The notes under the pieces: model-generated | Databases searched by the model: none | What the model saw: the letters and a program-made list of their open reading frames with translations, nothing else | Told to the model about the DNA's origin: nothing | Origin: Felis catus | Taxonomy: Eukaryota | Reading direction: 5' to 3' | Length of the DNA: 64,000 nt | Assembly: GCF_018350175.1 (NCBI RefSeq) | Contig: NC_058368.1 | Location: 90,894,001-90,958,000, forward strand | Made by a program: the position numbers and the translations under genes | In this document: in pieces, positions 13,450-64,000 of the stretch | Position numbering within the stretch: the stretch's first letter is position 1 | How the letters are laid out: every line of letters begins with the position of its first letter

Positions 13450-14590
13450 TAATTTTATGTGTTTAAAGTTTTTATTTAAAAATTAACTTGAGACCCAGAG
13501 CAAAGTGCAAAACCAGTACAGAGATAGTCCCTTCACCCAGCTTCCCCTGGTGTTCACCTCTAACCACAACAAGCATGGAAGCCAGGAGATTCATATGGAT
13601 ACGATGTTACTCTGTCACTCAGACTGCATCTGGATTCTACCCACGTTCCAACTCCCGTCCTTTTTCTGGCTCAGGATCCCACACAGGATTTCCACATGGG
13701 ATTTAGTTGTTGTGTCTCCTCAGTGTTCTTCAGGTAGTTCCTCAAGTTGTCTTTCCTGACCTGGCTACTACTACTTTTTTTTTTTTTAAGTTTATTTATT
13801 TTGAGAGAGACAGAGACAACACGAGTGGGGAAGGGCAGAGACAGAGGGAGAGAGAGAATCCCAAGCAGACTCTGTGCCGTCATTGCAGAGCCTGACGTGG
13901 GGCTCGATGACCTGAGCTGAAACCAAGAGTCAGATGCTTAACTGGCTGAGCCACCCAGGCGCCCCTGACCTGGCTCCTTCTGAAGAGAATGGGCCTCCAC
14001 ACAGGTTTGTCTGATGTTTCCTCAGGTCAGATTGAGTTTATGCATTTGGGGCAGGAATGTCACAGAACTTTTGTGTGCTTTGGGGTGTACAATCTCGGGA
14101 TATGTGATGTTGAACTGTCTTGCTGTTGGCAACAGTGACCCTCTTCACTTTGAGAACCCCTGCCCTTGTCTGCAGGGTTCTCCCCTGGAAACTTACTGTT
14201 TTTCCCTTTCTAATTCATAACTATTTCTTGGGAAGGTATTTTGAGATTATGCAAACGTGCTGTTTATCAGAACACTTTCTCACACTGATTTTTAGCATCA
14301 CTGGGTGGTTCTTACCTGTGGTGATCCTTACTGGGGTGTTTTGCGTGATGATTTTGTATCTCCGTCATTGCTTCCACCTTGATTGATTGAATCCCCATAA
14401 GGAAGAGCTGCTCCTCCTGCCCTCACTTGTTTCTCAATTATTTATTTATACCCGTATGAACTCGTGGATGTTTATTTTATTCTGTGGGTTATAATCCATT
14501 ACTATCATTATTTATTGTTTTGCTCAAATTATCACAGATTTGGCAAGTGAGATTGGATCCTCTGGCCTTTCGCCATGCTTGGGTGTGATT
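13450..14590 (-). mobile_element. Old L1 3'UTR (L1MC-like), split by a SINE
   Basis: aagtgcaaaaccagtacagaga...cttcacccagcttcccc and caggatcccacacagga...atttagttgttgtgtctcct, recalled L1MC 3' motifs. Confidence 0.65.
13775..13965 (-). mobile_element. Can-SINE with a small internal deletion
   Basis: TSD tgacctggct at 13757-13766 and 13966-13975; ggctcgatgacctgag lacks the usual intervening ~20 nt. Confidence 0.94.
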
Positions 14591-27064: not shown

Positions 27065-27182
27065 GGCAGCCGGAAATGCCAGCTTTTCTGATGTTTTGAG
27101 AGAATTTGAAAATCTGGTCATTTATGTGAAATCCTCTGATTCTTAAGTTGGAGCAACTAATTTAAGCTTTTAAGAAGCTCAG
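27065..27182 (+). mobile_element. hAT-Charlie MITE (MER103-like), left part; split by the L1
   Basis: ttctgatgttttgagagaatttgaaaatctggtcatttatgtgaaatcctctgattcttaagttggagcaactaattt matches the other in-window copies. Confidence 0.6.
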
Positions 27183-27701
27183 AGTGAGGTCACCAAGTTG
27201 GCAGAGTAGGGGATTCAGCCTCCATCCCCCAAAGAAGATGAATAATTAGGCAACTATCCACCAACAAAAACATCTCCGGGAAAACTCAGGAGTCCACTTA
27301 AACTTCAGCAACACAGTAGAACAAAAACCCTGAGAAAAATGGCACGAGAAGAAAAGGAAGGCAGCTTCATTTTGTCTGTATCACCCCGTCCCCCAGGCTA
27401 GTGCTGCTCTGTGCCAAGAGGGAACTTCCCCAGCATGAGTTTCCCACACCGGGAAAGGGAGAGTGGGGTGTGCGACCAGCTTCCCTAGCCTCTCAGCGAA
27501 CAAAGGACCCACTCTGTGTCACCCCATCCAGAAACCAGTGAAGCTGAGAGGTATAGAGATGGCTAGGAACAAAGAAGAAGGACAAGAATTACCAGCATTA
27601 AGAATGACCATGGTTCCCCGTGGTCCACTCCACAAGGGACCTCAGAGTTTTCACGGCTGAAGAAACCAATGGTCAGCACAGCTGCTATGGACCCCTGCAG
27701 A

Positions 27702-27735
27702 TTTTTTTAATTGATTTTTTAAAAAGTTTGTTTTT

Positions 27736-27767
<32 letters not shown>

Positions 27768-27928
27768 AGAGGAAGGGCAGAGAGAAAGGGAGAGAGAGAA
27801 TCCCAAGCAGGCTCCATGCTGTCAACGTGGAGCCCAGCGCCAGGGCTCGATCCCACAAACTGTGAGATCACGACCTGAGCCAAAATCAAGAGTCGGATGC
27901 TTAACCAACTGAGCCACCCAGGTGCCTC
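27702..27928 (-). mobile_element. Can-SINE in the L1 5'UTR
   Basis: TSD ccctgcagatttt at 27693-27705 and 27934-27946. Confidence 0.93.
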
Positions 27929-29672
27929 TAGAGCCCTGCAGATTTTACCACTGAGTTTTCATCCCACACGCTTTCACACTCACAGACACTAGCTGCTTGA
28001 GTCCCTCCTGCTCCCTCTTCCCACACCCTCCCCCCAAGCCTGGGATCTGCATCAGCAGCCTTCCCTGGCCTCTGTGGCTGCACGAGTGCAGAACACCAGC
28101 CTAGACCCCTGTGGCTGATCCCCACTGCTGTGTATACACAGGGCTAACCCCTTCAGCTGTACACATGCATACTGCTGACCTGACTCTTGTCACCAACCTC
28201 CACTGCCATGTGTGTGCCTGTGGTGAGACCCTGCCACTATGGGAGTGCACAGTGACAGCTAGGTCACTGGTAACTGTTAGTGTGTCTGTGGTTGGCTTTG
28301 GTTCTTACTGCTGCTCCTGGCTCTTGTCACAAGTATATATGAAACAAGACCCTGCCACTCCACAGGCACCTGCAGCTGAGCCCCATAGCTGAGTATGTGC
28401 ATACCACCAGGTCTGGCCACCACCACTGCCTGCCCTCATCCCTAGCCACTAGACCTGAAGGCGCCACTGAAGACCTCAAGAGTGCTTGTAGCCACAGAAG
28501 ACCCCCATAGTGCTTTCCAGGGACCATGAACTTGTCAATGTTGTGGATTCTAGCATCCTAAGCCAATGAAACATCATGTCTTCCCTACCCACCCTGCCCC
28601 CCCCCAGACCCAGAACCACCACACACCCCCTGCAGTTGGTGCCCTGCTTTTGCCCACCAGATCTGGGGGCCAGATGTCAACAGCATGACCCGGTGTGCTC
28701 CCACCTGCAGATGAAGGTCTTCCCTTACTGAAGTCAGCTTATAAAGTCTGGAAATGCACAGAAACCTATGCAAGGCTACAGGGATTATGAGGAATCAGAG
28801 AAATGAGGCCCCATCAAAGGAACACAGTAAACTTCCAGCAACTGATCCGAAAGAAACGGAGATACATGAATTGCCTGATAAAGAATTCAAAATAATCATT
28901 CTAAGTTTCCTCAGAGAGCTTAAGAGAGCTAGGAAAATAACACAAGAACAAAATGAAAAGTTTAACAAAGATAAAACATAAAAAAGAACCAAACAGAAAT
29001 ATTGGGGTTTAAAAACAGAGTGATTGGAGTGCAGAATTCAATAGAGAGTGTCAACATCAGATTGGACCACGTAGAAGAGACAGTGAGGTAGAAGGCAGAT
29101 CATGTGAAATTATCCAGTCAGAGGAGCAAGAGTATGAAAAGGAATGGAGGAAGGCCATAGAGCTTATGGGTCACTAGTAAGAGACACAATCTATGCATTA
29201 TTGGAGTTCCAGAAAGAGAAGACAGGGAGAAAGGGGCAGAGAATTTATTTAAAGAAATACCGGCTGAGAACTTCCTAAACCCGGGGAGAGATTTGGAATC
29301 CAAGTTCATGAAAATCACCCCCAAATTTCTATCTAGAAAGATCTTCTCCAGGACACATTATAGTAAACCATCTAAAGTCAAAGACAAAGAGATCCTTTCA
29401 AATGCAGCAAGAGAAAAAATTTCTCTCTTACCAGAGACCCTCCACCCCATAAAGCTCTCAGTGGATTTCTCAGCAGATACCTTGCTGGCCAGAAAAGATG
29501 GGGAGGATATATTCAAGGTGCTGAGAAAAAAAAAAAAAGAAAAACTATCAACAAAGAATACTTTATCTTGCCAAGTTGTCCTTCAGAAATGAAGACATGA
29601 TAAAGACTTTACCAACCAAACAAAAGCTGAGGAAAGCTCATCACACTAGACCTACTTTACAAGAAATACTGA

Positions 29673-29886
29673 GGGGTGCCTGGATGGCTTAGTTGGTTAA
29701 ACATCTGACTCTTGATTTTGGCTCAGGTCATGATCTCATCATTGTGAGTGAGATTGAGCCCTGCGTCTGCACTGTCAGCAAAGAGCCTGCTTGGGATTCT
29801 CTCTCCCCCTCACCTGCGCATCCACATGTACATGTGCATGCACATGCTCTCTCTCTCTCTCTCAAATAAATAAACATTAAAAAAAA
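29673..29886 (+). mobile_element. Can-SINE in L1 ORF1
   Basis: ggggtgcctggatggcttagttggttaa head; TSD-like aagaaatactga / aataaatgctga. Confidence 0.92.
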
Positions 29887-30206
29887 TAAATGCTGAAAGG
29901 AGTTCTTCAAGCTGAAACAAAAGGGTGCTAATTAGTAACATAAGAACATGTGAAAAAATATAACACCCCTGTAAAGTATATAATCAAATTCAGAATACTT
30001 TAATACTGTAATATGGTGGTTTGTTAACCCCTTAAATCTAATATAAAGGTTAAAGAATGCCAGTATTAAAAATAGCTATAGCTATAATAATTTGTCAATG
30101 AATACATGGTATGAAGAGATGTAAATTGTGACATCAGAAACATAAAATGTGGGAGTGGAAAATAAAAGGGAGAGTTTTTGTGTTCAATTGAAATTAAGTT
30201 GTTATC

Positions 30207-30705
30207 CTTGTCTGAGGAAATCGTCAGCATCTTAGAGACTGGAAAGTGTAAGTGCTTTTTGGTGAATGCAGTAACCTAACTTCTTCCCAGCCTGCTGTCC
30301 TGGACCTGAGCTGCAGCCTCCAGCCCTGCCATCCCTCCTGCAGACTGGATCCCCCTACAGCCATTTCTGTTCTAATGGAGTGTTGTACAGCCTTTAGCCC
30401 ATGGGAAATCTTTGTAGTAAGAAACCAAGGACCGGTTTTCCATCCGACATGTGTGAATGCCTTACCCCCCTTTATTCTACATTAAGTCCTAGTTCAGATT
30501 CTTTGAGAATGAGCAGGGAAGGGGCAGAGAATCCCAAGCGGACTGTGCTCTGGCAGGTCAGCCCAATGCAGAGGATCATTGAGCTGAAACTGAGAGTCCA
30601 CATGCTTGACTGACTCAGCCACTCAGGCACCCTAGTCCTATTTTAGCCTTACATCTCCAAATGGTGAAACATTTCAATAAAATAACAATGATTTTGAAAA
30701 AAAAA
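30207..30705 (+). pseudogene. Retroposed 3' end of an unidentified polyadenylated transcript (5'-truncated retrocopy or orphan transduction)
   Basis: Non-L1 sequence interrupts the L1 inter-ORF region. 17-bp TSD gaaattaagttgttatc (30190-30206) / gaaactaagatgttatc (30706-30722). AATAAA at 30676-30681, A9 tail at 30697-30705. Confidence 0.8.
30499..30632 (-). mobile_element. Eroded Can-SINE fragment within the retrocopy
   Basis: gagcagggaaggggcagagaatcccaagc...gactgactcagccactcaggcaccc. Confidence 0.82.
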
Positions 30706-31786
30706 GAAACTAAGATGTTATCAACATTTATTATATCTGTAAGATGAGTAAGCCTCAGAGTAACTGCAAAACAAAAACCTATGGGAGATGCACACAAGAT
30801 AAAGAGAAGAGAATCAAAGTATACCACTGTAAAAAATCATCAACTCACAAAAGAAGACAGCAAGAGAGGAAGAAAAGAACAAAGGAACTATAAAACAGAA
30901 AACAATTAAGATGGCTTTGGTGAGTCTTTAACTATCAGTAATTACTTTAAATGTAAATGGGTTAAATTCTCCAATCAAAAGTCTTAGAGTGACTGAGTGG
31001 ATTGAAAAAAAAGGAAGACCCAACTATATGCTGCCTACGAGAGACTTACTTCAGCTTTAAGGACACACTTAGCCTTAAAGTGGAAGGATGATAAAAGATA
31101 TTCCATGAAAATGAAAACAGAACAGAGCAGGGGTAGCTATACTTATAATAGATAAAATAGAGTTAAGTCAAAAACTGTAACAAGAGAAAAAGAAGGTCAT
31201 TATACAGTTGTAAAGTGGTCATCAAGAGAATATAAGAAGTATAAATGTATATATACACTCAACATCAGAGCACCTAAATGTAATAAATCAAATACTAATA
31301 GATCCGAAGGGAGAGATAGACAACAATACAATAATAGTAGTCCCACTTTCAATAGTGGATAGATCATTCAGACAGAAAATCAATAAGGAAACATTGGACT
31401 TGAACCATACTTTAGACCAAATGGACTTAATATGTATACAGAACATTCCATCCAATAACAGCAGAATACATATTCTTCTTGAGTGCACATGGAACAATCT
31501 CCAGGACAGATGACATGTTAGGGTGGAGAACAAATCTTAGCAAATGTAAATCATACCAAGTAACTTTTCTGATTACAGTGGTATGAAACTAGAAATCAAC
31601 AACAGGAGGAAAACTGGAAAATTCACAAATATGCAGAAACTAAACAACACATTCTTGAACAACCAGTGGGTCGGAGAAGAAATCAAAAAGGAAATAAGGA
31701 AAGTATCTTGAAACAAACAAAAATGGAAACACAACATACCAGAACTTATGTGATACTGCAAAAGCAGTTCTAAGAAGGAAGTTTAT

Positions 31787-32015
31787 TTTATTTTTGTTTT
31801 TTGTTTTTTGTTTTTTGTTTTTTTTCAATATATGAAGTTTATTGTCAAATTGGTTTCCATACAACACCCAGTGCTCATCCCAAAAGGTGGCCTCCTCAAT
31901 ACCCATCACCCACCCTCCCCTCCCTCCCACCCCCCATCAACCCTCAGTTTGTTCTCAGTTTTTAAGAGTCTCTTATGCTTTGGTTCTCTTCCACTCTAAC
32001 TTCTTTTTTTTTCCT
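31787..32015 (-). mobile_element. Felid L1 (L1_Fc-like) short 3' fragment inserted in the older L1 ORF2
   Basis: atgaagtttattgtcaaattggtttccatacaacacccagtgctcatccc; TSD taagaaggaagtttat (31771-31786) / taaggaggaagtttat (32016-32031). Confidence 0.9.
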
Positions 32016-33048
32016 TAAGGAGGAAGTTTATAGTGATAAATACCTACAATAAAAAAGATTTCAAATAAACAGCCTAACTTTACACCTCAAGGAACTTGGA
32101 AAAGAAAAACAAACTAAGCCCAGAGTTAGCTGAAGGAAGGAGATAACAAAGATCATTTCAGGACTAAATGAAGTAGAGAATAGAAAAACAATAAAAAGGT
32201 GAACAAAACCAAATAAAGATGTAAATAAAATTTAAAAAGATATTATAACCAATATCACAGAAATATGAAGGATCATAAGAGAATACTATGAACAAGTATA
32301 CAACAACATATTAGACAACCTTGAAGAAGTGGATACATTCCTAGAATCATATAATCTACCAAGACTGAATTAGGAAGAAATAGAAAGTCTAAACAGACCA
32401 GTAATGAGAAGGAGATTGGACCCATAATCAAAAATATTTCTAAACAAAGAAAAGCCCCAGAGTAGATGATTTCACAACTAAATTCTGCCAAACATTTCAA
32501 GATGAACTAATGCCAATCCTTCTCAAACTCTTCCAAAAAATTGTGGAGGAAAGAACACTCCCAAACTCATTTTATAATGCCCAAACCAGAAAAGGATGCT
32601 ACAAGAAAAGAAAACTATAGGCCAATATCCCAGGTGAACATAGATGCAAAAATTCTCAACAAAATACTAGCAAACCAAATTCAATAGCACATTAAAAGGA
32701 TCATGCATATTATCAGGTAGGATTTATCCCTGGGATGCAAGGTTGTTTCAACATATGCAAATCAATAAATGTGATACACCAGCTTAACAGAATGAAAAAC
32801 AAAATTCATATGATCATTCCAATAGATGCAGAGGAAGCATTAGACAAAATTCAACTTCCTTTCATGATAAAACTCTCAACAAATTGGGTGTAGAAGGAAC
32901 ATAGCTCAACATAATAAAGGTTGTATGTGACAAACCCACAGCTATTATCATACTCAATAGTGAAATGTTAAATGCTTTCCTGCTAAGATCATGAACAAGA
33001 CAAGGATGCCCACTCTCACCACTCCAGTTCAACTTAGTACTGGAACAA

Positions 33049-33155
33049 TTTTTTTAAGCTTATTATTTAGTAATCTCTAATTGAACTGGGATTTGAACTG
33101 CTGACCTCAGGAACAAGAATTGTATGCTCTTCTAACTGAGCCAGCCAGGTGCCCC
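33049..33155 (-). mobile_element. Short older Can-SINE
   Basis: tttagtaatctct...gggatttgaact...ctaactgagccagccaggtgcccc. Confidence 0.85.
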
Positions 33156-33463
33156 AGTAGTGAGACTTCTAACCAGAATAGTCAGGCAAGATAAAGAAAT
33201 AAAAGGCATCCAAATAGGAAGGGAAGAAGTAAAATTGTCTCTATTTTCTGGTTACATGATCTTATATACAGAAAATCCTAAAGACTCCATCAGAAAACTG
33301 TTAGAATTAATCAAATTGATTAAAGTTTCAGGATACAAAAATCAACATACAAAAATCAATTACATTTCTATATGAGAACAGTGAGCTATCTGACAAAGGA
33401 AGAAAACAATCTCATTTACAATCACATCTAAACACAACATCATATCACCCAAGGAAGTGAAAG

Positions 33464-33467
<4 letters not shown>

Positions 33468-33512
<45 letters not shown>
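33468..33512. repeat. (CA)n microsatellite inside L1 ORF2
   Basis: About 22 perfect units. Confidence 0.97.
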
Positions 33513-33514
<2 letters not shown>

Positions 33515-34871
33515 GATATTGATGAAGGAAACTGAAGAAGATACAAATAAATGGGAAGATATACTTTGTTCATGGATCAGAAGAGTTAATGATGTTAAAA
33601 TGTCCATACTACACAGAGCCATGTCTAGATTCAATGGAATCTCTATCAAAATTCCAAATTCTAATAGAAAACCAATCCTAAAATTTATATGGAACCACCA
33701 AAGACCCCAAATAGCCAAACAAAAAATGGTGGAGGCATTATTCTGATTCCAAACTGCATTTCAAAGCTATAGTAATCAAAACAGTATGATACTGGCACAT
33801 AGACAAATAGAACAGAATTGAGGGTCCAGAAATAATTCCACACATAACACAGTGAGTTTATATTTGGCCAAGGAGCCAAGAATACTCAATGGGGAAAGAT
33901 AATCTCCTCAATAAATAGTGTTGGATAATAACATGCCAAAGAATGAAATTGGACCCCTGTCCTACACCACTCACAAAAATTAACTCGAAACTGATTAAAG
34001 ACTTCAACATAAAATCATAAAACTTGAAGAAAATATAGGAAAAAACTTCTTGACATTGGTCTTGGCAATGATTTTTTGGATATGACACCAACAGCATAAA
34101 CAACAAAACCAAAAATCAGTAAGTGGTACTACATCAAACTAAAAAGCTTTTGCACAGCAAAGGAAACCATCAACAAAATGAAAAGCCAACCTGTGGAATA
34201 AGAGAAAATATTGCAAAGCAGCATGTATCAGATAAGAGGTTAATATCCAAATACATACAGAAGTTATACAACTCAAAGCAGAAAAAAAATATGATTAAAA
34301 AAATAGACAAAGGGCTTGCATTAGACATTTTTTTTCACAGAAGACGTACAGATGGTCAATAAATACATAAAAGGTGCTCAGCCTCAGGGAAATGCAAATC
34401 AAGGCCAACCATGTTGCATAACATCTGTTAGAATTGTTATCAAAAATATGAAATAACAAGTGTTGGTGAGGATGTGGAGACAGGGAGCCCTTCTGCACTG
34501 TGGGTAGGAATGTGAGCTGGTTCTGTCACTATGTCACTATGGAGATTCCTCAAAAAATTAAAAATAGAACTACTGTATGATCTAGAAGTCCCACTTGTGT
34601 GTATATATAGAGAGGAAATGCCAACAGAATATTGAAGTGATATCTGCACTCCTATATCCATTGTGTCATTATTCATAGGCAAGAAAGCAACCTAAATGTC
34701 CATCTGTAGATGGCAGGTTGATAAATGTTTGTATATACAATGGAATATTATTCAGCCTTTATAAAGAAGGATGTCCTGCTGTTTGTGACAACATGGATGA
34801 AACTGGATACTATGCTAAGTGAAATAAGCTAGACACAGAAAGACAAATGCAACCTAAAATATTCAAACTTA

Positions 34872-35070
34872 GGGCACCTGGGGTGTCTCAGTCAGTTGGG
34901 CATCTGACTCTTGATTTCAGCTCAGATCATGATTTCATGGTTCATGAGATTAAGCCCCGTGTCAGGTTCTATGCTGACAGTGTGGAGCCTGCTTCAGATT
35001 CTCTCTCTCCCTCTGCCTCTCCCCTGCTCATGTTTGCTCTCAAAATAAATAAACTTAAAAAAAATAAAAT
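34872..35070 (+). mobile_element. Can-SINE in the L1 3'UTR
   Basis: TSD aaaatattcaaactta / aaaatactcagactta. Confidence 0.93.
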
Positions 35071-35487
35071 AAAATACTCAGACTTATAACAGTGGAGTAG
35101 AATGGTGGTTGCCGGAGGCTGAAGGGAGGGGAAAATGGGAGGTGATGGTACAAAATTTTAGTTATGCAAGATAAGTTTTGGAGATCTATTATATAGCACA
35201 GTGCCTGTAGCTAACAATATTCTATCATATACTTACAATTTGCTAAGAGGGTCAAATATCATATGAAGTGTTCTTACCATGAGAAAATGATAATAATAAA
35301 GGGGGTGGGAAGATAACTTGAAGGTGATGGATATGTTTATGCCCTTGATGGTGGTGGTTTCATGAGTGATACTTATTCCCAAACTCATTGAGTTGTATAC
35401 ATTAACTGTACACATCTTTTCACATGCCAATCATATTTCAGTAAAATGGTTTTAAAAAACCCACCCAGAACCCTGAATGGGTCATAA

Positions 35488-36203: not shown

Positions 36204-36692
<489 letters not shown>

Positions 36693-52126: not shown

Positions 52127-52872
52127 TCCATTCATTCACTCATTCACTCATTCATTCATTCATTTTTCATCATTCATCCACTCACGCATCCATTCATTCA
52201 TTCATCTACCCATCCATCATCCATCTGTCTGTTAGTCCATGCATGCATCCATTCATCCATCCATTTCATTCATCCATTTATTCACTTGTCTACTCATTCA
52301 TCCATCAATCCATCTGTCCATTAATCCCTCCATCCCTCCCTCCATCCCTCCATCCATCCCTCCATCCGTCCATCCATCCATCCATTTCACTCATCCATTT
52401 ATCCACTCATCTACCCATCCATCCATCCCTCCCTCCCTCCCTCCCTCCCTCCTTCCCTCCATCCCTCCATCCATCCATCCATGCATCCATCCATCCATTT
52501 CACTCATCCATTTATTCATTCATCTATCCATCCATCCATTCATCTGTCCATTCATCCCTTCATCCCTTCATCCATCCATCCATCCATCCATCCCTCCATC
52601 CCTCCCTCCATCCCTCCATCCATCCATCCATCCATCCATCCATCCATCCATTTCACTCATCCATTTGTCCACTCATCTACCCATCCATCCCTCCATCCCT
52701 CCCTCCCTCCCTCCATCCATCCATCCATGCATCCGTCCATCCATTTCACTCATCCATTTATTCATTCATCTATCCATCCATCCATCTGTCCATTCATCCC
52801 TTTATCCATCCATCCATCCATCCATCCATCCCTCCCTCCCTCCTTCCCTCTATCTATCCATTCATCCATCCA
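52127..52872. repeat. (CCAT/CCCT)n satellite-like simple repeat with higher-order structure, at an L2 tail
   Basis: About 750 bp of CATT grading into CCAT/CCCT units. Confidence 0.95.
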
Positions 52873-58195: not shown

Positions 58196-60267
58196 TTCTC
58201 TTAAACAGCACTGGGAAGGGCTGTTCACCTGGGATTTAACCAGGGGGTGGGGGGCGGGACGGGGCGGGGTGACTGGGGGCTGGCAAAGTGACTCAGTGAG
58301 AAGGGGTCTGGGCAAGAACTGAGCTTCAGTCCTGGGCCCTGCTCCTAGGACCCAGGCCACCTCTGCACACAGTATGTGTCCCTGGGCTAGCTTCTTCTCT
58401 ATGAGCATTTGTGTTCCTGCTTATGTGTGGACAGATGTTTCCAATACTCTTGGCTACAAACCTAAGAGAATTGCTGAATCATATACTAAGTCTGTATTTC
58501 ACCTTTTGGGGTAGTGCCAGACTGTTTTTGCAAAGTGTCTTGAACATGATGCACCGCCCCTGCTCCCCACCCCCACCAACCTGCAACCACCCGGGAGGGT
58601 CAGGGCTGGTTATCATCCACAAAACTGTCCTAGATCCATGTATGTATTGTGGTCAGCTCACTGTGAGTTCTCAAACTGCATCCCCAGGGCTCCTGTGCAG
58701 AGCCGAGAAGGCCTGCTCCTTGTTCCCCGTCAGCAGAGACCAGCCTGTCTCCCTGTCTCCTGGTTTCTTTCCCATCTGAGGACTGGATGTTCTCGACCCT
58801 GGCCTGTATATTTTCTCCAGAAATTGGGGAGGCGGTGGAGGGGATTTGAGCTCTGCTTCTTTTGGCTGGAGAATAATTTCCACATTGGTTCTGTGCTGGA
58901 GTGGATCCCTCACTGGCAGAAATATAATTCCCAAGGCTTTTGGGGGGGCAAGAAGCTCAGAGCTTCCCTGGCTGGCAAGCCTTTTCAAGCTTTGCTTCCT
59001 GGATCACATGGATGTCATTTTTACATATGCTATCTCTCAAGGGCGTGGAGGGATGGGAAGAACCCCATTTGTGGGTAGGAAATGGAAGGTTCAGAGATGG
59101 CACAGTGAGAAACTGGAGGATCTGGGACTTGAACCCATGCCTGTCCGATGCAGAATGTGGGCTTTTTCTGCTACGCTAGCCTCAGGTGCTTCCTGAGCCC
59201 CTGTGAGGAATGAACAAGGGGTCAAGTGGATAAGGTCTTTGCTTTTCCCCTTAGGGAACCCTGGACACCTCCGGGTCTCACCTGTCCAGTCATCTAGGGC
59301 CCTGCTGGCAGAAGCCACCTGTGAGGGCAGAATGCTGGTGCCCTGGGGGCTGGCTGTGCAGCTGTCCAGATATGAGCAGGGGCTGTCTGTGTGAGGGGGT
59401 TAGTGTGGTAAGGATGCATGCACTTGTCTCTCACCAGGAGTTCTCACCCTCCTTCCTGGTGAGAACACAGCTAACCTGGTGGCTTTCCAGGGCCTTGCAC
59501 TATGTGACACTGGACAGCCACAAGGCAGGACCGAGAGGCCCTGTTAGCTCGTGCTTAAAGTGTGAATGGTCATGTGGATCACCACCAAATGTCACCCTGG
59601 GGCATGACTGGGAATGTCTCTGAAAAGTCAGAGGTCAAGGGGCAGGTCATTATTTTATTTTTTCTTTATAATAGCTTTATTGAGATATAATTCATGTGCT
59701 GTAATTCTCCCAAAGTGCACAGTTCTCTGGATTTTTAAAGCACAGTCCCAGGGTTGTGCAACCATCACCACAACCAACTTCTGAACATTTTTATCACCCC
59801 AAAAAGAAATTTCCTACTCATTAGCATTCATTTCCATTTTCCCTCAAGAAGCCTTCTGCTTCCTTTCTAGTTGAGATGCCTTTTATTTCTTTTTCTTGTC
59901 TAATTACTCTGGCTGGAACTTCCAGTACTGTGTTGAATAGCAGTGGCAGAAACAGGCACCCTTCCTTGTCTTGTTCCTAATCTTGGAGGAAAAGCTCTCA
60001 GTCTTTCACTGTTGATTATGATGTCAGCTGTGGGCTTGTCATAAATGCCCTTGATGTTGAGGAAGTTCCTTGCCTACTCCTGGCTTACTGAGTGTTTTTA
60101 TCATAAAGGGTGTTGGCTATTGCCAAGTGTTTTTTGTGCATCACTAGAGACGATCATGTAGTTTATTTTCCTCCATTCTGTTAATATGTATTATATTGAT
60201 TAATTTATCATATGTTAAACCACCTTTGCATTCTGGAATAAATCTCACTTGGTCATGTGTAGAATTC

Positions 60268-60475
60268 TTTTTTTTACTTTTAAATGTTTATTTATTTACT
60301 TTGAGAGAGGGAGTGAGTGAGTAGGGGAGGGGCAGAGAAAGAGAGAATCCCAAGTGGGCTCTGCACTGTCAGCACAGAGCCCAGCGCAGGGCTTAATCTC
60401 ATGAACTGTGAGAAATCTTGACCTGAGTTGAAATCAGGAATCAGACACTTAATTGACTGAACAACCCACATGCCC
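60268..60475 (-). mobile_element. Can-SINE
   Basis: TSD tagaattcttt / tagaaatcttt. Confidence 0.9.
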
Positions 60476-61905
60476 TAGAAATCTTTAAATATGCTGCTGA
60501 ATTCAGTTCACTAGTATACTGTTGAGGATTTTTGCATCTACCTTTGTAAGGAATATTGGTCTGTAGTTTTCTTATGATGTCTGTGTCTGGTTTTCATATT
60601 AGGGTAATGCTGGACTCATAAAATAAGCTAGGAAGTGTTCACTACTCTTCTGTTTTATTGGAGGAATTTGAGAAAGATTGGTGTTAATTCTCTAAATGTT
60701 TGGTAGAATTCACTAGTGAAGCTGTCTGTTGGTCCTGGGATTTTCTTTGTTGGTGGTTTTTGAATATTGATTTAGCCTCTTTGCCTGTTGTAAGTCTGTT
60801 CAAATTTTCTATGAGTTCTTGAGCCAGTTTTGGAAATTTGTGTGTTTCCAGGAACTTTTTCATTTCATCTAGTTTATCTAACTTATTAGTATAAAATTGT
60901 TCATAGTATTCTCTCATAATCCTTTTTAAAAATTTCTGTAGGGTCAGTAGTAATGTCCCCACGTCTCCCTCCCCTCAATTTTAGTAATTTGAGCCTTCTT
61001 TCTTTATCTTGGTCAGTCTGGCTAAATGTTTGTTAATATTGTTGGCCTTCACAAAGAACTAACCTCTGGTGTCATTGATTCTTCTATTGTTTTTCTATTT
61101 TATCTCTGTTCTAATTTTATTATTTCCTTTCTTCTACTAGTGTTTGGTTTAGTTTTCTCTTCTTCTCTTTCCTTAAGGTGTAATTAGATTATTGGTTTGA
61201 GATCTTTTTTTAACGTAGGGTTTTACAACTATAAATTTCTCTTCTAGTACTGCTTTTGCTGCATCCCTTGAGTTTTAGGTATTTCATGTTTTAGTTTTCA
61301 TTTCTTTCAAGACATTTTCTAATTCCCCTTGTAATTTCTTCTTTTATCCATTTGTTAAGAATATATTGTTTAATTTTCATATACTTATGAATTTTTCAGT
61401 TTGTCTTCTGTTGTTTCTAGTTTTATCCCATTATGTTTGGAGAAGATACTTCATTTGATTTCAGTTTTCCAAACTTTTTTGAGATGTATTTTGTGGCCTA
61501 TCATATGGCCTCCTGGAGAATGTCCCATTGTACGGGACAGGAATGTATATTCTGCTGTTTTTGTCTGGGGTGTTCTGTGTTTGTTAGGTCTAGTTGGGTT
61601 ATAGTGTTGTTCAAATCCTCTATTTCCTTACTGATTTTCAGCCTGGTTTTTCTATTTATTATTGAAGGTGAAGTATTGGTTTCTATCTTTATTGTAAAAC
61701 TATCTATTTCTCCCTTCAATTCTGTCAGGTTTTGTTTCCTGTATTTTGGGGCTTTTTTGTTAGATGCATATATATTTATAATTATTATACTTTCTTGATG
61801 GTCTGGACTTTTCATCAATATACAGTGTTCCTCTTTGTTATTTTACCGAAGGTCCATTTTGTCTGATATTAGGATAGCCACCCCAGACCTCTTTTGCTTA
61901 CTATT

Positions 61906-62047
61906 AAATTTTTTTCTTTGATAAATTCAACATGTTACAATTTGTAGATTTAAGGTGTATAGTGTGTTACTTTGATATATTTATATATGGTAATATGATT
62001 ACCACTGAAGCAATATTTATCACATTACATAATTATAGTCCATATTA
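61906..62047 (-). mobile_element. Short L1 3'-end insertion inside the older L1
   Basis: tttgtagatttaaggtgtatagtgtg...; TSD ttttgcttactatt (61892-61905) / ttttgcttactgtt (62048-62061). Confidence 0.75.
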
Positions 62048-62132
62048 TTTTGCTTACTGTTTGCATGGAATTTATTTTTTCATACTTTCACTTTCAACCT
62101 ATTTGTGTTTTGAGATCTAAATTGGGACTCTT

Positions 62133-62351
62133 GGGGCTCCTGAGTGTCTCAGTCGGTTGAGCGCCCGACTTCGGCTCAGGTCATGATCTCACAGTTTGTG
62201 AGTTCGAGCCCTGTGTCGGGGTCTGTGCTGTCAGCTCAGAGCCTGGAGCCTGCTTCAGATTCTGTGTCTCCTTCTCTCTCTGCCCCATCCCCACTTGTGC
62301 TCTGTCTCTCTCTGTCTCTCAAAAATAAATAAATGTAAAAAATAAAAATTT
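62133..62351 (+). mobile_element. Can-SINE (SINEC_Fc-like)
   Basis: TSD taaattgggactctt (62118-62132) / taaattgggaatctt (62352-62366). Confidence 0.95.
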
Positions 62352-63936
62352 TAAATTGGGAATCTTACAGACAGCATATAGTTGTTGGATCATGGTTTAA
62401 AAAAATCCATTTTGCCAATCTATGCCTTTTAACTGAAGAATTTAATACATTTACATTTAATGTAATTACTGATAAGCAAGGATTTACGTCTGCCACTTGC
62501 TATTTATTTTCCACATGTCATATCTTTTTTGCTCCTCAATTTCTCCAGTGTTGCCTCCTTTTGTGTATTAATACTTCTAGTGTATTTTTATATTTTTTCT
62601 GAATATTTTTAAGTCATTCTTATTGATTACCCACAGGATTATAATTATTTCCTTAATTGTATAACAATCTAGTTTGAATTAATGTCAACTTACTTTCAGT
62701 AGTATATAAAAACTATGCTCCTATACAGCTCAGTCTCCCTCACCTTTATTATTCTGTCACAAATTATATCTTTGTAAACATTGCATGCCCATTAACATAG
62801 ATTAATAATTATTGTATGAATTTGTCTATTAAATCATACAGAAAAAAGGAGGAGTTACAATCCAAGGACATTTAGTTACCTTTACTCATGTTCTTCATAT
62901 GAATTTGAGTTACTGTCTGGTGTCCTTTTATTTTAACCTAAAAGACTTCCTTTAGCATTTATTGCATGGTAGGTTGACTAGCAACAAAACCTCTCAATTT
63001 TCTTTTTCCAGGAATGGCTTAATTTTTCCTTCATCTTTGAAGAATCATTTTGCTGGTTATAGAATTCTTGCTTGACAGTATTTTTCTTCCAGAACTTTAT
63101 ATATGTCATTCCACTGTGTAGAAACCTCCATAGTTTCAGATGAGAAGTCAGCTGTTAATCTTGTCAAAGTTCCCTTATGAGTTGCTTCTCTCTTGATGCT
63201 TTCAAAATTCTGTCTTTTTTGCTTCTCTCTGGGTGCTTTCAAGATTCTTTGTCTTTCTCAAAGTTTTTTTGACAGTTTGATTTTAAAGTGTCTTGGTATG
63301 TATCTCTTTGAGTTTATCCAGCTTAGAGCTTCTTGATATATAGATTCACATTTTATCAAATTTGGGAAATTTTTGGTCATTATTTCTTTAAGTGTTCTTT
63401 CTGTCCTTTCTCTCTCTACCCTTTTTATGAGACTTCCCATTATGTGTATGTTGGTGCCTGTGATGGTTTCTCACAGGTATCCTAGACTCTGTTCATTTTC
63501 TTCATTCTTTTTTTCCTTCTGCTCTGCATACTGGATAATTCACCTATCTTTATGTTTTCTGAGTAGCTCACATCTGCTGATGAACCAATCCAATGAATTG
63601 TTCATTTCAGTTGTTATACTTTTCAGCTTCAAACTTTTCTTTTGGTATTTTATAATAATTTCTATCTTTTTATTAACATTCTGTATTTGGTGAGACATTT
63701 TTCTTCTATTTTGCTTTAGATCTTTGTTCATGGTTTCTTTTAGCTATTTGAGCATATTTAAGACAGTCAACTTAAAGTCTTTGTTTATAAGTTTACTAAA
63801 TCCAATGTCTGAACTTCTTCAGAGAAAGTTTTATTTATTTTTTGAATTTCTTCCCTCCCCCCACCATGAATAGACCATACTGTCTTGTTTCTTTGCATGC
63901 TTAATAAGTTTTTGCTAGAAACTGGACATTTAAAAA

Positions 63937-64000
63937 ATTTTTTTATGGTTTATTTATTTATTTATTTATTTTTAATATGAAATTTATTGTCAAACTGTTT
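63937..64000 (-). mobile_element. Tail of a felid L1 (L1_Fc-like), truncated by the window edge
   Basis: (TTTA)n then aatatgaaatttattgtcaaa, the same motif as 31827-31850. Confidence 0.75.

What the first reader, a model, noticed from the sequence alone, without database searches (positions are those of the whole stretch)
30190..30722. Hidden polyadenylated retrocopy of an unidentified transcript inside an old L1
Seen in sequence: about 500 bp of non-L1 sequence interrupts the L1 between ORF1 and ORF2. It has the hallmarks of L1-mediated retroposition: a 17-bp TSD with 2 mismatches (30190-30206 / 30706-30722), a TT/GAAA endonuclease-type site, and AATAAA (30676-30681) 15 nt before an A9 tail. 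Its first 72 nt read as an open frame ending in a stop (LSEEIVSILETGKCKCFLVNAVT*, 30208-30279), followed by UTR-like sequence with an eroded antisense Can-SINE. Inference: this is a 5'-truncated processed copy of an mRNA/lncRNA 3' end, or an orphan 3' transduction. The SINE may already have been in the parent UTR, which would date the event to carnivores. I cannot name the parent gene. Its polyA signal is in the ADAMTS2 sense orientation.
Basis: partly seen in the sequence, partly recalled or inferred. Interest (0 to 1): 0.7.

Follow-up and report, generated by a model that had tools for sequence, protein, structure and literature searches.

The report
Retrocopy family of unnamed cat RNA
A 490-base insert in an old LINE-1 inside the ADAMTS2 gene is a dead, reverse-transcribed copy of a short, probably non-coding RNA; the cat-family genome holds several sister copies that begin at the same base, so it looks like a full-length fossil of an RNA we could not name, a known kind of pseudogene.

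Summary
The insert is real: 17-bp target duplication (15/17), TT/GAAA site, AATAAA, A9 tail, and the host L1 closes up without it. The window is an ADAMTS2 intron. Laying public cat-family contigs at 80% identity showed at least four other loci, about 11% diverged from this copy. Four contigs start at the same base (30206) with flanks that look unrelated to each other, four of four carry the same antisense Can-SINE, and several run on past the polyA signal. Breakpoints near 30244-30250 hint at a splice junction. Best reading: an L1-made processed copy of a short polyadenylated non-coding RNA, retroposed repeatedly about 13-36 My ago. The parent remains unnamed; MIR302CHG was considered and rejected. 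No sign of ADAMTS2 intronic polyadenylation in two thinly sampled RNA runs. Ordinary mechanism; modest interest as the fossil record of an unannotated RNA.

The parts
27180..35460 (+). Old host L1, sense to ADAMTS2 (ends approximate); ORF1 remnant 29161-29592, ORF2 remnant from about 30900; carries several later SINE/L1 insertions
   Evidence: Pfam Transposase_22 E 5.6e-6 at 29161-29589 and weak RVT_1 E 0.013 (below cut-off) at 32696-32893; aligns to the antisense L1 at 59860-62960; ends judged from sequence
30190..30206 (+). 5' copy of the target-site duplication, preceded by TT (TT/GAAA endonuclease-type site); base 30206 also matches the first base of sister copies (1-nt ambiguity)
   Evidence: sister contigs align from 30206 (table 8)
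30206..30696 (+). Retroposed RNA copy, 491 nt (342 nt without the SINE and one SINE TSD copy); 5' end shared with sister copies
   Evidence: tables 3, 7, 8
30206..30246 (+). Candidate first exon of the parent (about 41 nt); inferred
   Evidence: in both DNA runs two contigs cover 30238 but not 30249; in X9 they stop on average at 30245 (arithmetic); X9 record 10 starts at 30250 after 426 unaligned bases
30485..30497 (+). Left copy of the inner SINE's own target duplication (11/13 with 30634-30646)
   Evidence: best pair in a local scan, no null computed
30498..30633 (-). Eroded antisense Can-SINE with internal deletions, inherited from the parent RNA
   Evidence: present in sister contigs, some of which carry extra SINE bases at 30566-30578 (tables 4, 8)
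30634..30646 (+). Right copy of the inner SINE's target duplication
30676..30681 (+). AATAAA polyadenylation signal of the parent RNA
30697..30705 (+). Remnant poly(A) tail, A9
30706..30722 (+). 3' copy of the target-site duplication
36520..36679 (+). Next ADAMTS2 coding exon (context only)
   Evidence: 52-aa translation matches proteins named ADAMTS2 at 81-97% identity

Best explanation
A short (about 350 nt plus an antisense Can-SINE), polyadenylated, probably spliced and non-coding RNA was abundant in the germ line or early embryo of a cat-family ancestor. L1 ORF2p bound its poly(A) tail in trans, nicked AT-rich targets (here TT/GAAA in the spacer between ORF1 and ORF2 of an old L1 in an ADAMTS2 intron) and copied it by target-primed reverse transcription all the way to its 5' end, leaving a 17-bp duplication. 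This happened at least five times (this copy plus four or more), roughly 13-36 My ago. This copy has no promoter of its own and decays neutrally. Shown: hallmarks, empty site, sister copies, shared SINE, shared first base. Inferred: that the shared first base is the RNA's natural 5' end (transcription start, or a processing cut), the splice junction near 30246, non-coding status, germ-line or embryonic expression, the age.
For: Hallmarks and chance test; empty site. Sister loci: in run X6 five contigs cover 30238 and four cover 30386 and 30465-30498, most at about single-locus depth (10-12) and with different letter combinations; the 16 pieces shown (of 710) differ from the window by 5-14%, pooled 10.7%. 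Shared 5' end: 4 contigs with loose ends before 30206 agree at only 0.56; simulated four unrelated flanks give 0.53-0.60, two related flanks reach 0.565 or less in at most 3% of 4000 trials. 3' end: depth 117 (X9) and 52 (X6) at 30690, falling to 29 and 0 at 30706. No coding signal in any of six frames and no ATG for the 5' frame. Precedent: repeated retrocopies of the spliced lncRNA MIR302CHG, most with the same exon-1 start (PMC7692494).
Against: The parent locus was never seen: the lay tool drops human-like contigs (the window's own locus was not among the listed pieces), returns no sequences, and showed 24 of 135 loose ends and 16 of 710 pieces. How the tool computes 'agreement' is not stated; the loose-end consensus ends in 13 A's, which fits A-rich target duplications but also a shared upstream A-tail. 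Poly(A) tails and TSDs of the sister copies were not seen; their listed 3' pieces end at contig ends (30680-30684). The splice junction rests on depth arithmetic. RNA support is thin: a handful of reads in X24 and none in X22 over 30206-30495; those reads could come from an intronic sister copy. Two of the contigs counted (X6 records 4 and 6) could be alleles.
Confidence: 0.68

Rival explanations
1. 3' transduction: a source L1 or SINE read through its own A-tail into unique flank, and this insert is an orphan daughter broken off just after that A-run; sister copies share the A-tail upstream.
For: Consensus of the four loose ends before 30206 ends in 13 A's preceded by AT-rich sequence (table 7); A-tails of unequal length would lower the agreement score.
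Against: Agreement 0.56 leaves little room for a shared 13-nt A-run in three or four contigs if it is computed over the 30 letters shown (my arithmetic); this copy has no A's at its 5' junction; breakpoints at 30244-30250 look like splicing, which flank read-through does not need.
Confidence: 0.12
2. Low-copy non-autonomous retroposon: one or more copies became sources of further copies (a Pol II 'proto-SINE' with an antisense SINE domain).
For: Fixed 5' end and several copies; some sister contigs share exact 31-mers at both ends (X6 records 7 and 8 start and end at the same places), so some copies are closer to each other than to this one.
Against: Only about 4-5 other loci per position (a lower bound, because of the filter); no structure (fold z +1.5, 94 of 100 shuffles fold as well); no Rfam family; apparent isoform differences point to a spliced parent gene.
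Confidence: 0.08
3. One reading: a randomly 5'-truncated copy of the last coding codons and 3' UTR of a protein-coding mRNA.
For: 23 open codons then a stop; at the two places in that frame where every covering sister contig differs in a wobble or stop position (30249, 30278) the reading is unchanged; protein searches with so short a query are weak.
Against: Open frame expected by chance (0.78); no hit in PDB, Pfam or the 5.8-billion set and one spurious repeat hit among 1.84 billion representatives (E 9.6e-4); independent truncations at the same base are very unlikely; those differences arose in this dead copy, so they say nothing on selection.
Confidence: 0.06
4. The fixed 5' end is a processing cut (for example a Drosha cut in a microRNA host RNA) rather than a transcription start.
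Against: No hairpin or miRNA family in the insert; no parent flank seen.
Confidence: 0.06

Closest known systems
L1-mediated retrocopies of the lncRNA MIR302CHG, types T1 and T2 (Pan and Lin 2020, PMC7692494; read parts 1-4 of 6 of the text and parts 1-2 of 3 of the table supplement; the PDF and FASTA supplements could not be read)
   Same: Several independent insertions of a short spliced, polyadenylated non-coding RNA with TSD and poly(A); most copies share the exon-1 start; alternative splice forms; T2 copies are about 330 nt, close to our 342 nt without the SINE; regarded as dead.
   Different: Table S2 lists five cat copies, none in ADAMTS2, and only two with (separate) SINE interruptions, whereas ours share one SINE; no miR-302 match and no LARP7-like peptide on the minus strand; mouse exon-1 primers do not visibly match (by eye).
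Processed pseudogenes of mRNAs (general class; hallmarks as stated in PMC7692494)
   Same: TSD, endonuclease-type site, AATAAA plus A-tail, neutral decay.
   Different: No coding parent detected; apparently full-length; parent appears lineage-specific because it holds a Can-SINE.
L1 3' transductions, including orphan transductions (recalled, no call)
   Same: Unique sequence plus internal polyA signal mobilised by L1, several copies from one source.
   Different: No L1 or SINE piece at the 5' end of this copy; sister flanks look unrelated; hint of splicing.
ERVL/MaLR LTR-driven oocyte lncRNAs (Franke et al. 2017, PMC5538554; passages only) and snoRNA-host lncRNAs (bioRxiv 10.1101/031385; passages only)
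   Same: Classes of abundant short spliced non-coding RNAs that could supply such a parent; LTRs give a promoter, a start site and a splice donor in a short first exon.
   Different: Untested: no repeat library was available. A resemblance of the first 45 nt to a MaLR splice-donor region is recalled only; no snoRNA was found (best hit E 0.09, far below its cut-off).

Membership tests
L1-mediated processed retrocopy | Target-site duplication flanking the insert | tested here: met
   15/17, unique in the window at up to 3 mismatches
L1-mediated processed retrocopy | 3' poly(A) tract after a polyadenylation signal | tested here: met
   AATAAA 30676, A9 30697-30705
L1-mediated processed retrocopy | Endonuclease-type target (TT/AAAA or close variant) | tested here: met
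   TT/GAAA at 30188-30193; consensus recalled
L1-mediated processed retrocopy | Empty site holds one copy of the duplicated target | tested here: met
   met against a paralogous L1 in the window, 77 vs 79 nt; orthologous outgroup site not testable
L1-mediated processed retrocopy | Homologous source sequence elsewhere in the genome | tested here: met
   four or more other loci, pieces 5-14% diverged; which one is the parent is unknown
L1-mediated processed retrocopy | Intron lost relative to the parent | tested here: inconclusive
   breakpoints cluster at 30244-30250 in both DNA runs, but no intron sequence was seen
Processed pseudogene of a protein-coding gene | Translated similarity to a known protein | tested here: not met
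   short queries limit the power
MIR302CHG retrocopy (T1/T2) | Listed insertion site or homology to exons E1/E3 or miR-302a | tested here: not met
   ADAMTS2 absent from Table S2; no miRNA hit; no minus-strand protein hit; direct alignment to E1/E3 not possible (FASTA supplements unreadable)
L1 3' transduction | Source L1/SINE with A-tail directly upstream of the shared sequence | tested here: inconclusive
   loose-end consensus is A-rich but agreement is 0.56
Known transposable-element family | End-to-end match to a Dfam/Repbase consensus and high copy number | not testable with these tools
   no repeat library; summed contig depth over the non-SINE part is 34-142 in X9 against up to 74,000 over the SINE, so copy number is low
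Structured RNA family (Rfam) | Covariance-model match above the family cut-off | tested here: not met
   2 matches at E up to 10, both far below cut-off
Feliform Can-SINE subfamily I (inner SINE) | Diagnostic 7-nt motif near position 36 (PMC4084570) | tested here: inconclusive
   the inner SINE has a 7-nt segment at that place, as the long-form window SINEs do, but it matches the published motif at only 3 of 7 letters here

The most novel reading that the evidence does not exclude
The copies are not just fossils of one gene but a nascent, felid-specific composite retroposon: a short Pol II RNA with a fixed start and an antisense Can-SINE domain that made it an unusually good L1 substrate (as the antisense Alu-like part is thought to do for primate SVA; recalled), with some copies spawning further copies before the family died or went quiet.
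Probability: 0.08. Interest if true: 0.68.

Novelty: new member of a known kind. Interest (0 to 1): 0.33.

Why it matters
Retrocopies of long non-coding RNAs are rarely catalogued because screens start from proteins (PMC7692494 says so). A set of five or more copies with one start base records the 5' end, polyA site, SINE content and possibly the splice forms of an RNA that was abundant in the felid germ line or embryo tens of millions of years ago, and it points to a gene that may be unannotated or lost. One BLAST against a cat assembly would make that testable. For ADAMTS2 itself nothing suggests an effect: the surrounding sense L1 already carries 18 other AATAAA hexamers.

Tried and rejected
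Own genome: none held. Rfam: no family; the GlsR6 snoRNA hit (E 0.09, 18 bits vs cut-off 75) straddles the TSD and was set aside. ARAGORN: 0 genes. Protein searches of the 23-codon frame and of all six frames: nothing credible; P0055 is a repeat-rich IgGFc-binding protein matched over 14 residues. My first idea of an exon plus retained intron through the GTAAGT at 30248 was dropped: all covering sister contigs read C at 30249 (1 of 1 in X9, 3 of 3 in X6), so that donor arose in this copy. A branch point and acceptor-like site before 30291 was noticed; the 36-nt pieces that start there (30290-30325) may be a chance look-alike, so it is not used. Metagenome scan with a 20-nt motif: 8 loci, 8 of 8 chance matches of at most 26 nt. 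No second copy of the unique part in the window. Five short motifs were not found in the paper library. Literature searches for this locus or family (listings only) found nothing on it; subscription papers and unreadable supplements are not covered. MIR302CHG parentage considered and rejected (PMC8159989 passages and its whole supplement text, PMC6440458 passages). Bacterial promoter scan is irrelevant. RNA fold shows no excess structure. Earlier findings by sequence, relatives, near and words returned nothing on this stretch.

Full report
Setting. The window is a cat-family ADAMTS2 intron: the exon at 36520-36679 translates to a peptide matching proteins named ADAMTS2 at 81-97% (53 hits in all, the weakest being ADAMTS3-like). 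'Cat family' rests on the Can-SINE content and on earlier scan notes; run organisms are coded. A sense L1 spans about 27180-35460, with an ORF1 remnant (Pfam Transposase_22, E 5.6e-6) and a weak RT match below cut-off.

Observation. The 3' TSD copy has a single partner in 64 kb at up to 3 mismatches, and the expected number in 3 kb upstream is 4.4e-4; an unconstrained pair arises in 7 of 60 shuffles, so position is what counts. The flanks align to a second, antisense L1 in the window with 77 nt between them there and 79 nt here once the insert and one TSD copy are removed from the count: the L1 has no room for this sequence. The 23-codon frame has no ATG and is expected by chance (0.78). No frame gave a credible protein match; these searches are weak for 23 residues.

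Sister copies. No assembly was available, so I used public runs. 20 of 24 listed runs hold the stretch, 19 with half of its words or more; they were chosen as holders, so this says nothing on fixation. I laid 4 of the 24 (two contig sets X9 and X6, two single-cell RNA runs X22 and X24) at 80% likeness. The output lists 16 of 710 pieces, 40 of 143 differing positions and 24 of 135 loose ends, and drops human-like records; no listed piece is this locus itself. Even so, the non-SINE part is covered by several contigs that differ from the window by 5-14% (pooled 10.7%, all 16 shown pieces). In X6 five contigs cover 30238, and four cover 30386 and 30465-30498; depth sums identify them (10.5+9.7+12.2+10.3 = 42.7; 10.5+12.2+12.2+11.5 = 46.4), and they carry different letter combinations. 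I count at least four other loci; two of them could be alleles, and filtered loci would add to the count.

Three results follow. (1) The SINE was in the source: 4 of 4 X6 contigs at 30498 continue into it, X9 record 9 runs 30206-30628, and some sisters keep SINE bases that this copy lost at 30566-30578. (2) The 5' end is shared: four X6 contigs have loose ends before 30206 whose letters agree at 0.56. Simulation gives 0.53-0.60 for four unrelated flanks and reaches 0.565 or less in at most 3% of trials if two are related. If copies were randomly truncated pieces of a long mRNA, longer sisters would share upstream sequence. The caveat is that the consensus ends in 13 A's and the tool's measure is not defined, so a shared A-tail is not excluded. 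(3) In both DNA runs two contigs cover 30238 but not 30249 (depth 71.8 to 24 in X9, 44 to 24.1 in X6), stopping about 30245 in X9, and X9 record 10 starts at 30250 after 426 unaligned bases. This fits a 41-nt first exon ending in AAAG joined to a second exon, but no intron was seen, so it is inference. At the 3' side depth is 117 and 52 at 30690 and falls to 29 and 0 at 30706, so sisters share the region past AATAAA and do not share the 3' TSD; their own tails were not seen.

RNA. Of 75 and 73 records laid in X22 and X24, none is 99% or more alike, most are SINE or A-run matches, and no start or end pile-up is listed. X24 has one to five reads deep over 30280-30500 carrying sister letters (30349 in 4 of 4, 30398 in 4 of 4, 30442 in 3 of 3); X22 has none there. 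So some family member is transcribed at a low level in one sample, possibly as intronic RNA; this copy was not seen expressed, in about 1% of two runs of unknown tissue. ADAMTS2 intronic polyadenylation has no support, and the L1 around it has 18 other sense AATAAA.

Age. With 2.2e-9 substitutions per site per year (rate quoted in PMC7692494) on both lineages, 5-14% gives 13-36 My, pooled 26 My. The TSD's 2/17 has a 95% interval of 1.5-36%. The inner SINE has the long form at the position that PMC4084570 uses for its older feliform subfamily I (origin 45-60 My; passages only), but matches the motif poorly, so it only loosely bounds the date.

Mechanism. Shown: an L1-type insertion of an RNA with a polyA signal, one of several copies with a common start and a common internal SINE. 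Inferred from established L1 biology: ORF2p captured a cellular polyadenylated RNA in trans and copied it fully, which is easy for 500 nt; repeated capture implies abundance where L1 is active, the germ line or early embryo. I put this at 0.68, against 3' transduction 0.12, a low-copy retroposon 0.08, a truncated coding mRNA 0.06 and a processing-defined 5' end 0.06.

Comparison. The length of their E1+E3 type (about 330 nt) is near ours without the SINE (342 nt), and their cat T1S1 copy is a 42-nt partial E1, which resembles our exon-1-only contigs. Their alignment files could not be read, so a direct alignment is still wanting. LTR-driven oocyte RNAs (PMC5538554) and snoRNA hosts (10.1101/031385) are candidate classes, untested. 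I found no paper on this locus or family, within a library that lacks most subscription journals.

Verdict. Real, correctly spotted, ordinary in mechanism: a new member of the known class of non-coding-RNA retrocopies. What lifts it slightly is that it belongs to an unrecognised multi-copy set that seems to preserve a whole unannotated RNA. Interest 0.33.

Noticed in passing
window 31771-32031: A second insertion inside the same L1's ORF2: an antisense, poly(T)-led fragment of about 230 nt with a 16-bp target duplication (15/16; 31771-31786 and 32016-32031). By recall it looks like the 3' end of a younger felid L1; a similar start is at 63938-64000.
   Followed up: partly
window 30246-30290: A 43-45-nt stretch in the insert looks like a miniature intron or alternative acceptor region: GT at 30246 or 30248, a branch-point-like pentamer at 30276-30280, a pyrimidine run and CAG at 30288-30290. 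One RNA read in X24 starts at 30291 (arithmetic). May mark an alternative splice form of the parent, or be chance.
   Followed up: partly
X9 records 10 and 14; X6 record 3: Some sister contigs have about half the depth of the others (16-19 vs 24-38 in X9; 3.9 vs 10-12 in X6): possibly X-linked or presence/absence-polymorphic copies.
   Followed up: no
window 59860-63800: A second old L1, antisense, with ORF1, spacer and ORF2 remnants, 64-72% identical to the host L1; used as the empty-site reference.
   Followed up: partly
window 52129-52872: A 740-nt (CATC)n/(CATT)n tetranucleotide array, about 170 copies, that yields long spurious ORFs.
   Followed up: no
window 13776-13966: The window SINE that aligns best to the inner SINE (80%) also lacks part of the same middle region; not examined whether this is a shared short subtype or separate deletions.
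   Followed up: no
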